DNA of 64,000 bases from an uncultured bacterium (GTDB lineage: Bacteria; Bacteroidota; Ignavibacteria; Kapaibacteriales; UBA2268). The stretch lies in assembly GCA_942492935.1 (NCBI GenBank), contig OW818654.1:1515219-1579218 (forward strand), written 5' to 3'. This document shows, piece by piece, positions 18,122-20,791 of the stretch. A program made the position numbers and the translations under genes. Numbering within the stretch: the stretch's first letter is position 1; each line of letters begins with the position of its first letter. Under the pieces are notes generated by a model that was given only the letters and a program-made list of their open reading frames with translations, was not told where the DNA came from and did not search any database.

Positions 18122-18661
18122 TTGATTAAAATGGATAACAAACAGGAATATTTTCTTGAATTATTTGAACCGATTAAGCATAATCTATGGCGGTTTTGCT
18201 TGAGTGTTTCAAATAGTTATGAAGATGCTAAAGATTTACTTCAGGACACAATTGAAATTGCATATAAAAAAATTGATTCGTTAAAAGATAATAAATTCTT
18301 TCTAAGTTGGTTGTTTTCTATTGCATCACGCAAATATATTGAGAAGCAAAATAAGAGAAAATATGAAGTAAATAGTTACGATTATGATGCTTTAATATCA
18401 GTTCTTGCTTCTAATGAAGGAAATCCAGAATTACAAACTGACATCAAATTGTTATACGAAGCTCTTGAAAAACTACCATATCAACAAAAGGAAGCTGTGA
18501 TTTTAAGCGAAATAATTGGTTTAAATCACAAAGATATTGGAATTATCCAATCAGTTTCTACTGAAGCTGTGAAACAACGTGTTTACAGAGCAAAACAATT
18601 ACTTAAAAGTATTCTGATAAATAACAATGTTGATTCTTGTATCACATATAATAATTTGTAG
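18122..18661 (+). CDS. ECF-type RNA polymerase sigma-70 family factor
   Basis: Region-2-like DLLQDTIEIAYKKIDSL…FLSWLFSIASRKYIE and region-4 HTH LPYQQKEAVILSEIIGLNHKDIGIIQSVSTEAVKQRVYRAKQLL. 179 aa. Confidence 0.8.
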   Translation: MIKMDNKQEYFLELFEPIKHNLWRFCLSVSNSYEDAKDLLQDTIEIAYKKIDSLKDNKFFLSWLFSIASRKYIEKQNKRKYEVNSYDYDALISVLASNEGNPELQTDIKLLYEALEKLPYQQKEAVILSEIIGLNHKDIGIIQSVSTEAVKQRVYRAKQLLKSILINNNVDSCITYNNL

Positions 18662-18670
18662 GTAAATAAA

Positions 18671-20791
18671 ATGAAAGATATAGATAAAATATTGAATAAT
18701 GTAAAATCATCAAGCATTCCCGAATTTCCATTTTCTGATTCGCAAGTCCGGACTGTGATTGAAAATGTGGATTCTAAAAATAATTTTCAAATAATTAAAA
18801 AAGGAGCAATAATTATGACTTTTCTTATTTCACTTGTAGCATTTATGCTGTATTTGGGAGTCGATTCAGCGTCTGATTTAATAAACAATAAACAGTCGAA
18901 TTTTTTAGATTCACAAACAAAAATCATAACACAATTAGAATCTACTGCAAACATTGATAATGAACAGCAAAAGGAAGAATCTACTTTTAACCAAAATAAT
19001 CAGCAAACTTCGGACATTAAAAAACAATCCAAAATCTATGATATTGCAATGAATGAAGTTCAAGCAGATGCAAAGAATGTTTTTACTATTTTCATTCCAG
19101 ATAAAAGTGAAATGGACAAATTGTTTATTAGAAAAACAAATTGTGGATATGTAATAATGACTGAAGAAAACTATCCAATTAACCAATTTAAAGTGCAAAT
19201 GGAACAAATCTACAAAAATAATTACCCCAAAAAAGGTTACAAAAGAGCAATTCAAGTTTTAAATTTTGATGATATTCAGGAAATTGGAATTGCTAATTAT
19301 ACTGGCTGGGAAATGGATAATTCTGCAGGAATTTTTCCAATTATGGCAAAACTTATCAACATTGATAAAAAATTCAAAAACACCAGAAGGTTTCTTAGCA
19401 AAGCATCCCCCGGTCCAATTGATATTTCAGAACTAAGTGATATTGTCAATAGCAAGTTTTTGAGATTTATTCATAATACACTTGAAAAGTTGGATGATAA
19501 AAATGCTGGAAATGAGTTAAAAATTACTTACAATAAAGATGAAAATGAGTATTTATCGCAGGTAAGTATTGTTCTTTTGGATTTGGATAATGATTCTACA
19601 AGTTCATTTTGGCTGTTGGTTTATCCAAATACGAGAAATTTTGTTAAACTTCTTCCAAATAGATTTAATAAAGAATCAGATTTTGATTTATTTTCAGATT
19701 TTGGAATGGACTATAATGAAAGTGAAATAAATAGTGAAATTAACTTAGCTATTAATAATTTAGATGTAGAATGCAAAAACAAAATAAATGAAATTAAACA
19801 AAATGCACCAAAAACAGTTTCAAAAATTAGTGGTATTGAAAAAATAATATTGACAAATGAAGAAGCAAAACAAATTGGTATTAATATTGAAAAAAGTATA
19901 ATTTCATTCGAAGCAGAAGAATATTCTGATTTGTCAGTTTTACCTGATAAAATTCAAACATATATACAAACTGAGTTTAATTATAATACAACGGGTTTTG
20001 CCCTTCTTAAGGAAAGAATTGAATTTGATATGAATAATACTAACAATATGATAAAACCTGTTGTACAAAAATATTCAGGTTGGGAACATAATTTATGGTC
20101 TAACATTTCTCCGGCTTGCATTACAGTAAATAGAACTCTACAAATCGGCAACATTGTATCGTTAAGCCAAATCTTTCAATCTCCGCATTTAGTTAGAGAT
20201 TCAGCATACTATTATTTAAATAGTGATGATATTATTGTTAGAGATTCATTAGGGAAATACAAAGCAAAGATTCCAAATTTAATTCCTGTCAATTTTAAAG
20301 AAATTTCTTATAATAATAATGGAGATTCAATAGTAAATAACATTGATATCTGGTATGTTATTACAAGAGAATTTGCAAATAGATTACCTAATAGATACAA
20401 ATTACCTTTAATCAAGGAACTCGATTTGCTAAGCAATATTGAAAATGGTTCTACCACTATTGATGATGCTTGTGAGGTATTGAAAGGTGAGAAATCTTAT
20501 TTAGGAATTTGCGAAATTCAAGGTGAATTATCAATTCTAAATATTTTTCCAAATCCAATTACAGAAAGTACAGCCACAATTAAATTTATTCTTAAAAGTG
20601 ATAAAAAATTAAAAATTGAACTTTTCAATTCAAATGGAGAATTATTAGAAACAGTAAAGGACTATTCAGAATACAATACAGGTATCAATAGTGTGAATCT
20701 TGAATTTTTTGATTTATCAAAAGGAGTAGTTTTAATTTCATTGACAGATGAAAGCAATCAAAGAGCAATAATCAAAGCTATTAAAAATTGA
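18671..20791 (+). CDS. Membrane-anchored anti-sigma-factor-like protein with a large extracytoplasmic domain and a T9SS C-terminal sorting domain
   Basis: Its start lies 10 nt after the sigma-factor stop. A ~45-aa N-terminal cytoplasmic segment precedes a single TM helix (AIIMTFLISLVAFMLYLGV). The C-terminus …LSILNIFPNPITESTATIKFILKSDKKLKIELFNSNGELLETV… is a canonical Por_Secre_tail. Confidence 0.55.
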   Translation: MKDIDKILNNVKSSSIPEFPFSDSQVRTVIENVDSKNNFQIIKKGAIIMTFLISLVAFMLYLGVDSASDLINNKQSNFLDSQTKIITQLESTANIDNEQQKEESTFNQNNQQTSDIKKQSKIYDIAMNEVQADAKNVFTIFIPDKSEMDKLFIRKTNCGYVIMTEENYPINQFKVQMEQIYKNNYPKKGYKRAIQVLNFDDIQEIGIANYTGWEMDNSAGIFPIMAKLINIDKKFKNTRRFLSKASPGPIDISELSDIVNSKFLRFIHNTLEKLDDKNAGNELKITYNKDENEYLSQVSIVLLDLDNDSTSSFWLLVYPNTRNFVKLLPNRFNKESDFDLFSDFGMDYNESEINSEINLAINNLDVECKNKINEIKQNAPKTVSKISGIEKIILTNEEAKQIGINIEKSIISFEAEEYSDLSVLPDKIQTYIQTEFNYNTTGFALLKERIEFDMNNTNNMIKPVVQKYSGWEHNLWSNISPACITVNRTLQIGNIVSLSQIFQSPHLVRDSAYYYLNSDDIIVRDSLGKYKAKIPNLIPVNFKEISYNNNGDSIVNNIDIWYVITREFANRLPNRYKLPLIKELDLLSNIENGSTTIDDACEVLKGEKSYLGICEIQGELSILNIFPNPITESTATIKFILKSDKKLKIELFNSNGELLETVKDYSEYNTGINSVNLEFFDLSKGVVLISLTDESNQRAIIKAIKN

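What the first reader, a model, noticed from the sequence alone, without database searches (positions are those of the whole stretch)
18122..20791. ECF sigma factor translationally coupled to a membrane-anchored, T9SS-sorted 706-aa partner
The downstream gene starts 10 nt after the sigma gene. It has a short cytoplasmic N-terminus and one TM helix like an anti-sigma factor, but it is followed by a ~600-aa extracytoplasmic region that ends in a canonical Por secretion tail. A protein that is both inner-membrane-anchored and T9SS-tagged is topologically odd. It may be released as a surface signal, or the first 65 residues may act as an anti-sigma module coupling secretion or surface status to transcription.
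Basis: partly seen in the sequence, partly recalled or inferred. Interest (0 to 1): 0.55.

Follow-up and report, generated by a model that had tools for sequence, protein, structure and literature searches.

The report
Sigma factor paired with secretion-tagged membrane partner
A stress-type sigma factor gene is always followed by a gene for a membrane-anchored protein that also carries an outer-membrane (type IX) secretion tag, a conserved but undescribed pairing that may link gene control to protein export and may yield two proteins from one gene.

Summary
An ECF sigma gene (18131-18661) lies 9 nt upstream of a 706-aa ORF (18671-20791). That ORF encodes a 45-aa cytoplasmic N-terminus, one TM helix, a disordered linker, a large ectodomain and a type-A T9SS C-terminal domain.

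It is not a one-off. A full HMMER scan found 383 cluster representatives. In all 15 independent related loci with upstream sequence, a homologous sigma gene sits directly upstream, often overlapping by 4 or 8 nt, while the flanking genes differ. A signal-peptide-type relative has no adjacent sigma. All 8 loci inspected by eye, and 3 more by pattern, carry an ECF-like promoter motif upstream of sigma. The window copy (18058-18089) is the only one in 64 kb.

The ectodomain is a tandem duplication of an uncharacterised ~200-aa module (hhalign E 2.4e-24). The N-terminus matches no known anti-sigma family.

New finding: the Met at the start of the TM helix is invariant. It is preceded 7-9 nt upstream by a Shine-Dalgarno-like core in 15 of 17 loci, even where the encoded residues differ. 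This suggests an internal start producing a second, secretable isoform.

Best reading: an autoregulated sigma/anti-sigma-like module tied to T9SS export. The mechanism is inferred, not shown.

The parts
18058..18089 (+). Candidate autoregulated ECF-type promoter: TGTTACCTTTT-N15-CTTACT, 42 nt upstream of the sigma ATG
   Evidence: The bipartite motif TGTnACCTTTT-N15-C(T/A)TAC(T/C) lies 40-60 nt upstream of the sigma start in all 8 loci inspected by eye. A pattern scan also finds it in L008-L010. It was not matched in L011-L015 or L019. It occurs once in the 64-kb window, against a shuffle mean of 0.01. Function is inferred.
18131..18661 (+). ECF (group IV) sigma factor, 176 aa
   Evidence: Pfam Sigma70_r2 plus Sigma70_r4_2; TIGR02937 72.2 bits against cutoff 42.9. 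The 176-aa form is the one on record. Homologues at phmmer E 1e-27 to 1e-67 lie upstream of every partner homologue.
18671..18805 (+). Partner aa 1-45: conserved cytoplasmic two-helix domain (MKxIDKxL ... PEFPFSDxE[IL]RxIL, then a basic stretch); putative sigma-binding module
   Evidence: Conserved across 25 diverged members. AF2 predicts helices 4-13 and 23-31 at pLDDT 82-88. M1 has SD-like cores in 11 of 17 loci. No Pfam or PDB sequence match.
18803..18817 (+). GGAG (18803-18806), 8-nt spacer, invariant in-frame ATG (Met49, 18815-18817): candidate internal ribosome-binding site and start
   Evidence: Met49 is invariant in 25 of 25 members and Gly45 nearly so. An SD-like core lies 7-9 nt upstream in 15 of 17 loci, against 16 of 207 other in-frame ATGs in the same genes. 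The Gly codon is GGA or GGG in 14 of 14 cases, naive P about 4e-5. The motif persists where the residues differ: AGA-AGG-ATA, TGG-AGA, AAA-AGG-AAT.
18806..18862 (+). Single transmembrane helix (aa 46-64), N-in orientation by the positive-inside rule
   Evidence: Kyte-Doolittle peak of 2.47 over 19 aa. 109 of 117 representatives of at least 450 aa have such a segment starting 30 or more aa from the N-terminus, and 102 of those 109 have at least 2 K/R before it. AF2 helix 46-61.
18863..19063 (+). Poorly conserved, Q/N/S/K-rich disordered linker (aa 65-131); length is variable in relatives
   Evidence: 33 of 52 codons are non-synonymous against the 66%-identical homologue. pLDDT is below 50 for aa 64-114. 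Relatives are 680-1017 aa long, and the extra length falls in this region.
19064..19687 (+). Ectodomain module A (aa 132-339), first copy of a novel alpha/beta module
   Evidence: hhalign of module A against module B: probability 99.6%, E 2.4e-24, 188 columns. pLDDT is mostly 85-95. No Pfam hit. No solved homologue found.
19817..20419 (+). Ectodomain module B (aa 383-583), second copy, ending in the family signature WFxxxxEFAxLLPxRY[RK]xPI
   Evidence: hhalign result. The most conserved block of the family. It occurs alone with a normal signal peptide in P0069 and P0127.
20420..20527 (+). Helical hairpin with an invariant Cys pair (C601, C614; ACxxLKGExSYxGxC), probably a disulfide
   Evidence: C601 and C614 are invariant in 25 of 25 members and at least 90% conserved across 150. 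AF2 helices 574-591 and 597-603. The disulfide and the oxidising compartment are inferred.
20528..20791 (+). Type-A T9SS C-terminal sorting domain (aa 620-706) plus stop codon
20820..20856 (.). 17-bp perfect inverted repeat followed by a T-run: likely bidirectional terminator closing the operon
   Evidence: Terminator scan; sequence.

Best explanation
This is a self-contained, autoregulated two-gene module: an ECF sigma factor and its cognate single-pass, anti-sigma-like partner.

Proposed organisation:
- The long product, from ATG 18671, inserts N-in.
- Its 45-aa two-helix cytoplasmic domain holds the sigma factor inactive.
- Its periplasmic part consists of a flexible linker, two tandem novel modules, a disulfide hairpin and a type-A CTD. 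The CTD is recognised by the type IX secretion system.

Proposed mechanism: sigma is released when the ectodomain is engaged or removed. This could be a juxtamembrane site-1 cut, for which signal peptidase is a precedent in RsiV and RsiP, followed by intramembrane proteolysis. Sigma activity, and hence transcription of the operon from the conserved promoter at 18058-18089, would then track export of the partner.

Shown: the architecture, the family, strict sigma linkage, co-divergence, the conserved promoter motif, and a canonical CTD.

Inferred: sigma binding, proteolysis, coupling to T9SS, and the nature of the signal.
For: Architecture and domains.

Family: 383 representatives at E <= 1e-3 and 170 at E <= 1e-10. 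109 of 117 long members have the pattern 'cytoplasmic extension plus TM'.

Sigma linkage: a sigma homologue lies immediately upstream on the same strand in all 15 independent related loci with upstream sequence. Nine have 4- or 8-nt overlaps, and flanking genes are unrelated.

Paralogues: two paralogous pairs occur in one MAG (L004 and L007).

Co-divergence: sigma and partner identities correlate at r = 0.56 (N-terminus) and r = 0.70 (C-terminal part) over 105 pairs.

Negative control: the signal-peptide-type relative P0069 has no sigma neighbour.

N-terminus is translated: it is conserved as protein, and M1 has AAGGAG-type SDs in relatives.

Promoter: a conserved ECF-like motif that is unique in the window.

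Selection on both ends: the CTD residues and the N-terminal motif are both conserved across the family.

Precedents: two-helix class II anti-sigma domains (PMC6101532) and signal peptidase as the site-1 protease of anti-sigma factors (PMC8844934).
Against: - No physical or genetic evidence that aa 1-45 bind sigma.
- The N-terminus matches no Pfam or NCBIfam anti-sigma family and no PDB sequence.
- No sigma/N-terminus complex model could be run.
- No second promoter copy was found, so the regulon beyond the operon is unknown.
- The residues after the TM helix are often N/Q-P-x-x, which is not a canonical AxA site. SignalP and DeepTMHMM were not available.
- A T9SS cargo tethered in the inner membrane has no described precedent in the literature searched.
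- The T9SS machinery itself is not in the window; only other cargo proteins are.
Confidence: 0.6

Rival explanations
1. One gene, two products. This extends the best explanation and does not exclude it. Ribosomes would start at M1, giving the membrane-anchored anti-sigma form. They would also start at the invariant internal Met49 behind a conserved SD. That second start would give a protein whose N-terminus is a signal-peptide-like hydrophobic segment. This short form would be exported by Sec and then by the T9SS as ordinary cargo. The 'anchored yet secretion-tagged' paradox then belongs mainly to the minor, long isoform.
For: - Met49 is invariant in 25 of 25 members and present in 94 of 109 anchor-type representatives.
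- GGAG, AGGA or GGGG lies 7-9 nt upstream in 15 of 17 loci, against 7.7% at other in-frame ATGs.
- Synonymous choice at the Gly codon is GGA or GGG in 14 of 14 cases, although GGT and GGC make up about 52% of Gly codons in the same genes.
- The motif is kept where the residues are RR, WR or KR.
- These organisms use AAGGAG at genuine starts.
- Single-module relatives with a normal signal peptide exist.
- From Met49, the hydrophobic stretch is about 15 aa, which is the length of a signal-peptide h-region.
Against: - K/R-G-A/V before a TM helix is also expected from the positive-inside rule and helix capping, so part of the nucleotide signal is confounded with protein constraints.
- The loci are not phylogenetically independent.
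- The short form would usually lack a positively charged n-region.
- Host genes in the window use weak SDs.
- More distant family members lack the Met.
- There is no expression data.
Confidence: 0.4
2. The partner is not an anti-sigma factor. It would be just the sigma-dependent T9SS cargo, and its conserved 45-aa N-terminus would be an extended signal-peptide region that modulates Sec targeting, as in some autotransporters. The TM segment would be cleaved constitutively. Sigma would be controlled by something else.
For: - The canonical CTD is strongly conserved.
- The only promoter copy found drives the operon itself.
- The N-terminus has no similarity to known anti-sigma domains.
- Module B occurs as plain secreted cargo elsewhere.
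Against: - The N-terminal extension and an adjacent sigma gene co-occur strictly, and both are absent in the signal-peptide-type relative.
- Overlapping stop and start codons are typical of sigma/anti-sigma operons.
- No other candidate regulator is conserved in the variable flanks.
- The extension is hydrophilic, helical and 45 aa long, unlike known extended signal-peptide regions. This last comparison rests on my own knowledge.
Confidence: 0.2
3. The CTD is used as a periplasmic docking handle and not for export. The anchored protein would span the periplasm and touch PorV/SprA or another T9SS part. It would report the translocon's state to the cytoplasm without ever leaving the cell, by FecR-like trans-envelope signalling.
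For: - A disordered linker of variable length follows the TM helix. It is about 50 residues by pLDDT in this protein, and relatives are up to about 300 aa longer overall.
- CTDs bind PorV (PMC7712824).
- The PorA CTD protein signals to the PorXY-SigP cascade.
Against: - There is no homology to FecR.
- The CTD keeps all features of cleaved type-A cargo domains.
- Nothing here distinguishes docking from transport.
Confidence: 0.2
4. Chance adjacency or a mis-called ORF with no functional relationship.
For: Only that the window alone cannot prove a link. Pfam scores the CTD 0.4 bits under its cutoff.
Against: - Linkage holds in 15 of 15 independent related loci, with co-divergence.
- The reading frame is conserved with no stops from M1 to Met49 in 17 loci.
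- 22 of 25 members hit the CTD model.
Confidence: 0.01

Closest known systems
Single-pass anti-sigma factors of ECF sigma factors released by regulated proteolysis (RseA, RsiW, and especially RsiV/SigV and RsiP/SigP, where signal peptidase makes the site-1 cut)
   Same: - The sigma gene is immediately followed, or overlapped, by a gene for an N-in single-pass membrane protein.
- That protein has a short cytoplasmic domain and a large extracytoplasmic sensor part.
- The operon is probably autoregulated.
- The TM plus juxtamembrane region could act as a cryptic signal peptide, as in RsiV and RsiP (PMC8844934).
   Different: - The cytoplasmic domain is only 45 aa with two predicted helices and no sequence match to class I domains.
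- The ectodomain is a novel tandem module.
- It ends in a T9SS sorting domain, which none of these proteins has.
- No protease sites or proteolysis have been shown.
Class II (two-helix clamp) anti-sigma domains: CnrY and NepR
   Same: A very short cytoplasmic inhibitory domain predicted as two helices (AF2 helices 4-13 and 23-31). In CnrY this is followed by one TM helix (PMC6101532 for the fold; the TM helix is from my own knowledge).
   Different: - No detectable sequence similarity.
- CnrY has only a small periplasmic tail and works with CnrX. Here there is a 640-aa extracytoplasmic part with a secretion tag.
- Structural equivalence was not tested.
FlgM/sigma-28 (and ExsE-type) secretion-coupled regulation
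   Same: The logic is the same: an inhibitor of a sigma factor carries an export signal, so transcription reports on the secretion machine. This comparison is from established knowledge, not tested here.
   Different: - FlgM is a soluble cytoplasmic protein exported whole by the flagellar T3SS. Here the inhibitor is membrane-anchored and the export signal faces the periplasm, so proteolysis or a second isoform is required.
- There is no homology.
PorA - PorXY - SigP circuit of Porphyromonas gingivalis
   Same: A CTD-bearing protein feeds information about T9SS or surface status to an ECF sigma factor (PMC7712824).
   Different: - PorA is a small (246 aa) secreted protein with an ordinary signal peptide.
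- It acts through a two-component system.
- It is not encoded next to sigP.
- It is restricted to Porphyromonas.
- Here the CTD protein and the sigma are a direct two-gene unit.
FecR-type anti-sigma factors of Bacteroidota and Proteobacteria (trans-envelope signalling)
   Same: The anchored regulator reaches across the periplasm to an outer-membrane machine, and the gene lies next to an ECF sigma gene.
   Different: - No FecR or DUF4974 domains are present.
- The outer-membrane partner would be the T9SS, not a TonB-dependent transducer.
RsgI/SigI of clostridia
   Same: A short N-terminal anti-sigma domain of about 50 aa, one TM helix, and large modular extracellular sensor domains. This comparison is from my own knowledge.
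   Different: - No RsgI_N match.
- RsgI belongs to Gram-positive bacteria, with no outer membrane or secretion tag.
- The sigma factor is of a different family (SigI-like).

Membership tests
ECF (group IV) sigma-70 factors | [quoted passage not shown] | tested here: met
   Sigma70_r2 plus Sigma70_r4_2; TIGR02937 72.2 bits against cutoff 42.9; 176 aa. No specific NCBIfam equivalog passes its cutoff.
ECF (group IV) sigma-70 factors | Autoregulated promoter with an AAC-type -35 element followed by a T-tract, and a short -10 element about 16 nt downstream | tested here: inconclusive
   The motif TGTnACCTTTT-N15-CTTAC is conserved upstream of sigma in 11 loci and is unique in the window. No transcription data.
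Anti-sigma factor (functional class) | Binds and inhibits its cognate sigma factor | not testable with these tools
   Indirect support only: strict adjacency in 15 of 15 related loci, stop/start overlaps, and co-divergence with r = 0.56-0.70.
Class I anti-sigma domain (RseA, RsiW, ChrR, zf-HC2 types) | Cytoplasmic domain of about 80-90 aa forming a three-helix bundle plus a fourth helix; Pfam or NCBIfam match | tested here: not met
   The cytoplasmic part is 45 aa with two predicted helices. No Pfam, NCBIfam or PDB sequence hit.
Class II anti-sigma domain (CnrY/NepR) | Two-helix clamp around sigma-2 and sigma-4 | tested here: inconclusive
   Two helices are predicted at pLDDT 82-88. The clamp geometry and the complex were not tested, and there is no sequence similarity.
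FecR-like anti-sigma factors | FecR (PF04773) or DUF4974 periplasmic domains | tested here: not met
   Pfam scans of the protein and of 25 relatives return only Por_Secre_tail.
T9SS type-A cargo | C-terminal sorting domain (TIGR04183/PF18962) with the conserved PNP, G and GxY motifs | tested here: met
   TIGR04183 26.9 bits against cutoff 23; PF18962 26.6 bits against cutoff 27; 22 of 25 relatives hit. P627, N628, P629, G656, G671, G685 and Y687 are at least 90% conserved.
T9SS type-A cargo | CTD adopts the beta-sandwich fold of solved CTDs | tested here: met
T9SS type-A cargo | Cleavable N-terminal Sec signal peptide at the very N-terminus | tested here: not met
   In the full-length product the hydrophobic segment starts at aa 46, after a conserved hydrophilic domain. 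Other CTD proteins in the window start MKK plus an h-region. The feature could be met by a product starting at Met49. Signal-peptide predictors were not available.
T9SS type-A cargo | Host encodes a T9SS, and secretion depends on it | not testable with these tools
   No T9SS components lie in the 64-kb window. At least 3-4 other CTD proteins do. Relatives come from FCB-group and Kapaibacterium MAGs.

The most novel reading that the evidence does not exclude
The operon is a self-contained 'export-gated' expression cassette, a T9SS counterpart of FlgM/sigma-28.

One mRNA would yield, from two conserved start sites 144 nt apart, two products:
- an inner-membrane anti-sigma form;
- a signal-peptide-type secreted form of the same protein.

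Removal of the ectodomain by Sec, signal peptidase and the T9SS would free the sigma factor to transcribe more of the cassette. Production of this surface protein would then be matched to the cell's type IX secretion capacity.
Probability: 0.25. Interest if true: 0.85.

Novelty: new variant of a known kind. Interest (0 to 1): 0.66.

Why it matters
How bacteria of the FCB group sense the state of their type IX secretion system, and feed that back into transcription, is largely open. The only studied case, PorA-PorXY-SigP, is indirect and restricted to one genus.

This family is widespread, with several hundred 50%-identity clusters. In it, an ECF sigma factor is hard-wired to a membrane protein that carries the T9SS export tag. 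That gives a simple two-gene system in which the coupling could be tested directly.

It would also add three things:
- a new minimal anti-sigma domain;
- a new duplicated extracytoplasmic module of unknown function;
- possibly an anti-sigma gene with a conserved internal start site that makes a second, secreted product.

I found no report of a T9SS-tagged anti-sigma factor in the four searches aimed at that combination. I did not search for internal starts in anti-sigma genes, so I make no prior-art claim on that point.

Tried and rejected
- Word-index homologue searches. The protein alone found only itself and one 66% relative. The 25-sequence profile added nothing useful. The N-terminal profile found nothing. 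Low-complexity, AT-rich words probably swamp the index. The exhaustive HMMER scan was what revealed the family.
- AF2 with a 2-sequence alignment failed at pLDDT 32. The 150-sequence alignment gave pLDDT 80.
A narrower alignment gave only 5 genome loci and 3 metagenome loci.
- The afdb50 fold library was not available.
- The N-terminal profile found no credible hit against PDB sequences or Pfam.
- A search for further copies of the promoter motif, to define a regulon, found none in the window or in the flanks of related loci.
- The longer sigma-partner gaps in L005 and L010 were checked for an intervening small gene, such as a separate anti-sigma. No conserved ORF was found.
- Literature searches for a T9SS-tagged anti-sigma factor found nothing.
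- Rejected: 'the internal Met is the only true start'. The N-terminus is conserved as protein, and M1 has SDs in relatives.
- Rejected: chance adjacency.
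Full report
**1. Checking the observation**

ORF listing and sequence show a + strand ORF from 18122 (TTG) or 18131 (ATG) to 18661, and a second ORF at 18671-20791.

The first ORF is an ECF sigma factor:
- Pfam Sigma70_r2 and Sigma70_r4_2 both hit.
- TIGR02937 scores 72.2 bits against a cutoff of 42.9.
- No specific equivalog model passes its cutoff.
- The 176-aa form starting at 18131 is the one held in the public protein collection, and it matches the MDxKQ starts of homologues.

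The second ORF (706 aa) has these features:
- A hydrophilic 45-aa N-terminus.
- One hydrophobic helix at about aa 46-64, preceded by KK.
- A C-terminal T9SS type-A sorting domain. TIGR04183 scores 26.9 bits (cutoff 23). Pfam scores 26.6 bits, just under its cutoff of 27.

The intergenic gap is 9 nt. The description is therefore correct. Only the sigma start coordinate is probably 9 nt too early.

**2. It is a family, and the pair is a unit**

The word-index protein search found only one relative, at 66% identity. That relative sits on a 5.7-kb metagenome contig where an ECF sigma gene also lies directly upstream, but the flanking genes are unrelated: YbeY and a response regulator, against qNOR and a ParE toxin module in the window.

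An exhaustive HMMER scan with the two-sequence profile then found 383 cluster representatives at E <= 1e-3, 170 at E <= 1e-10 and 26 at E <= 1e-30. Many are about 700 aa and align end to end.

I recovered DNA for 18 independent loci that hold a relative (L013 and L014 are duplicates; L016 and L017 share the same gene and neighbours):
- L016 is the signal-peptide-type relative, discussed below.
- L018 is a 1.5-kb contig with no upstream sequence.
- The remaining 15 all carry a homologue of the window's sigma immediately upstream on the same strand. phmmer gives E 1e-27 to 1e-67 for L001-L015. For L019 the evidence is the Pfam gene call.
- Nine have 4- or 8-nt stop/start overlaps. The other gaps are 2 to 299 nt.
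- Nothing else is conserved around the pair.
- One MAG carries two paralogous pairs.
- Sigma and partner identities correlate across 105 locus pairs, with r = 0.56 for the partner N-terminus and r = 0.70 for its C-terminal part.

Record titles place the relatives in FCB-group and Kapaibacterium MAGs. The window itself holds at least three other CTD proteins with ordinary MKK-type signal peptides, so this organism uses the T9SS.

**3. Anatomy of the partner**

Alignment of 25 diverged members (19-66% identity to the window's protein) shows the following:
- A conserved N-terminus: MKxIDKxL, then PEFPFSDxE[IL]RxIL, then a basic stretch.
- The TM helix.
- A poorly conserved region of variable length.
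- Two conserved blocks.
- The signature WFxxxxEFAxLLPxRY[RK]xPILxEL ... ACxxLKGExSYxGxC, with two invariant cysteines.
- The CTD.

With a 150-sequence alignment, AF2 gave a usable model at pLDDT 80.2 and pTM 0.67:
- Two N-terminal helices at pLDDT 82-88.
- TM helix at 46-61.
- Disorder at 64-114.
- Two alpha/beta domains joined by a long helix.
- A helical hairpin.
- A beta-sandwich CTD.

Profile-profile comparison shows that the two ectodomain blocks are a tandem duplication (hhalign probability 99.6%, E 2.4e-24, 188 columns).

Among 117 representatives of at least 450 aa:
- 109 have a hydrophobic segment that begins 30 or more residues from the N-terminus.
- 102 of those 109 have at least 2 K/R just before it.
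- 102 of the 117 keep the PNP motif of the CTD.

Both ends of the protein, the cytoplasmic motif and the export tag, are thus under selection in the same polypeptide.

A single-module relative with a normal signal peptide (P0069) has no sigma neighbour. This ties the N-terminal extension, not the ectodomain, to the sigma factor.

**4. Promoter**

The intergenic DNA upstream of sigma cannot be aligned between loci except for one bipartite block, TGTnACCTTTT-N15-C(T/A)TAC(T/C), located 40-60 nt before the sigma ATG.
- It is present in all 8 loci inspected by eye.
- A pattern scan also finds it in L008-L010. It was not matched in L011-L015 or L019.
- The window copy at 18058-18089 is the only match in 64 kb, against a shuffle mean of 0.01.

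Its shape resembles ECF promoters: an AAC-type -35 element followed by a T-tract, with about 16 nt to a short -10 element. That comparison is from my own knowledge. It suggests autoregulation. No further targets were found.

A 17-bp perfect hairpin at 20820-20856 closes the operon.

**5. An unexpected signal at the internal Met**

That Met (aa 49, nt 18815-18817) turned out to be the only invariant residue of the N-terminal region in 25 of 25 members, with Gly45 nearly invariant.

At the DNA level the reason looks translational:
- The window reads AAAAAAGGAGCAATAATTATG.
- Of 17 loci, 15 have GGAG, AGGA or GGGG 7-9 nt upstream of this ATG. The other two have GGAA.
- The same test on other in-frame ATGs of the same genes gives 16 of 207 (7.7%).
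- The Gly codon is GGA in 12 of 14 cases and GGG in 2 of 14. It is never GGT or GGC, although those are about 52% of Gly codons in these genes. The naive P is about 4e-5.
- Where the residues differ, the purine motif persists: AGA-AGG-ATA, TGG-AGA, AAA-AGG-AAT.

These organisms use AAGGAG at real starts, including M1 of the partner in several loci and the start of the signal-peptide-type relative.

Both starts therefore look genuine. A product from Met49 would begin directly with a hydrophobic stretch of about 15 residues, like a signal peptide, and would be an ordinary Sec-plus-T9SS substrate.

Caveats:
- K/R-G-A/V before a TM helix is partly expected from protein constraints.
- The loci are related.
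- The short form mostly lacks a charged n-region.
- Distant family members lack the Met.
- Host genes in this window use weak SDs.

I rate a functional internal start at about 0.4.

**6. Mechanism**

The most economical model is an autoregulated ECF sigma/anti-sigma-like module. The two-helix N-terminus sequesters sigma; the class II clamp domains CnrY and NepR are a size and shape precedent (PMC6101532). The periplasmic part is handed to the T9SS through its CTD.

Release of sigma would need a juxtamembrane cut followed by intramembrane proteolysis. Signal peptidase does exactly this for RsiV and RsiP (PMC8844934). That makes a TM segment which doubles as a cryptic signal peptide a realistic idea.

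The architecture, linkage, co-divergence, promoter conservation and CTD identity are shown. Sigma binding, proteolysis, T9SS dependence and the signal are inferred.

Rivals:
- The N-terminus is only an extended signal-peptide region of a sigma-dependent cargo (0.2).
- The CTD is a periplasmic docking handle in a FecR-like trans-envelope relay (0.2).
- The dual-product model (0.4) is compatible with the main model.
- Chance adjacency is excluded.

**7. Comparison with known systems and novelty**

The module works like single-pass anti-sigma systems. In logic it may work like FlgM/sigma-28, and it echoes the PorA-PorXY-SigP circuit (PMC7712824).

It is not a member of the class I, FecR or RsgI anti-sigma families: no domain matches, and the cytoplasmic part is half the size. 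As a T9SS cargo, the full-length form fails the 'N-terminal cleavable signal peptide' criterion.

Full-text searches found no description of a T9SS-tagged anti-sigma factor. The ECF reclassification paper mentions T9SS only in a reference.

I class this as a new variant of a known kind: an undescribed, widespread ECF-partner family with an uncharacterised N-terminal domain and ectodomain. Interest is moderate to high (0.66) because it offers a compact, testable link between T9SS export and transcription, together with a conserved internal start signal.

Noticed in passing
window 22235-62000 (approx.): Prophage-like or integrated element. It includes a tyrosine integrase (22235-23344, - strand), many small ORFs, a 1303-aa protein with 20 or more collagen triple-helix repeats (43564-47475, -), a second collagen-repeat protein (48126-49523, -) and a 1244-aa CHAP-domain protein (55270-59004, -). 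Its genes carry strong AGGAG-type Shine-Dalgarno sites, whereas the chromosomal genes at 1-21 kb mostly show weak AGGT or none. No tRNA gene is in the window.
   Followed up: partly
window 20939-21456 (- strand): ParE-like toxin (94 aa, PF24732) with an overlapping upstream 86-aa ORF, probably its antitoxin. It lies between the partner gene and the integrase.
   Followed up: no
window 20820-20856: A 17-bp perfect inverted repeat (ACAAACTTGGCAAGTCAT CAT GACTTGCCAAGTTTAT) between the convergent partner and ParE genes. It is unusually long and G+C-rich for this 31% GC sequence, and is a probable bidirectional terminator.
   Followed up: partly
window 96-6875 and 13180-15045 (+ strand): A run of other T9SS cargo genes with ordinary signal peptides: a 667-aa protein with a FlgD_ig-like CTD region, a WD40-like beta-propeller with a weak CTD hit, a BNR/sialidase-like protein, and an SBBP beta-propeller protein.
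   Followed up: partly
window 7275-11311 (+ strand): Two adjacent genes resembling ATP-citrate lyase subunits (ATP-grasp_2/Citrate_bind; CoA_binding/Succ_CoA_lig). This hints at a reductive TCA cycle in this low-GC FCB-group organism.
   Followed up: no
window 15550-17781 (- strand) and 12008-12973 (+ strand): A quinol-type nitric oxide reductase (NorB with a fused cytochrome-c-like domain, 743 aa) is divergent from the sigma operon. An IS110-family transposase lies upstream of it.
   Followed up: no
L005 5812-6000 and L010 4702-5000: In two related loci the sigma and partner genes are separated by 189 nt and 299 nt. These gaps hold no conserved ORF. They may hold an inserted repeat element, but this was not examined.
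   Followed up: partly
P0069 / L016 5001-6074; P0127: Single-module relatives of about 360 aa, consisting of module B plus the CTD, with a classical signal peptide. In L016 the gene sits downstream of a GAF-GGDEF gene and has no sigma neighbour. The ectodomain module therefore also exists as plain secreted cargo.
   Followed up: partly
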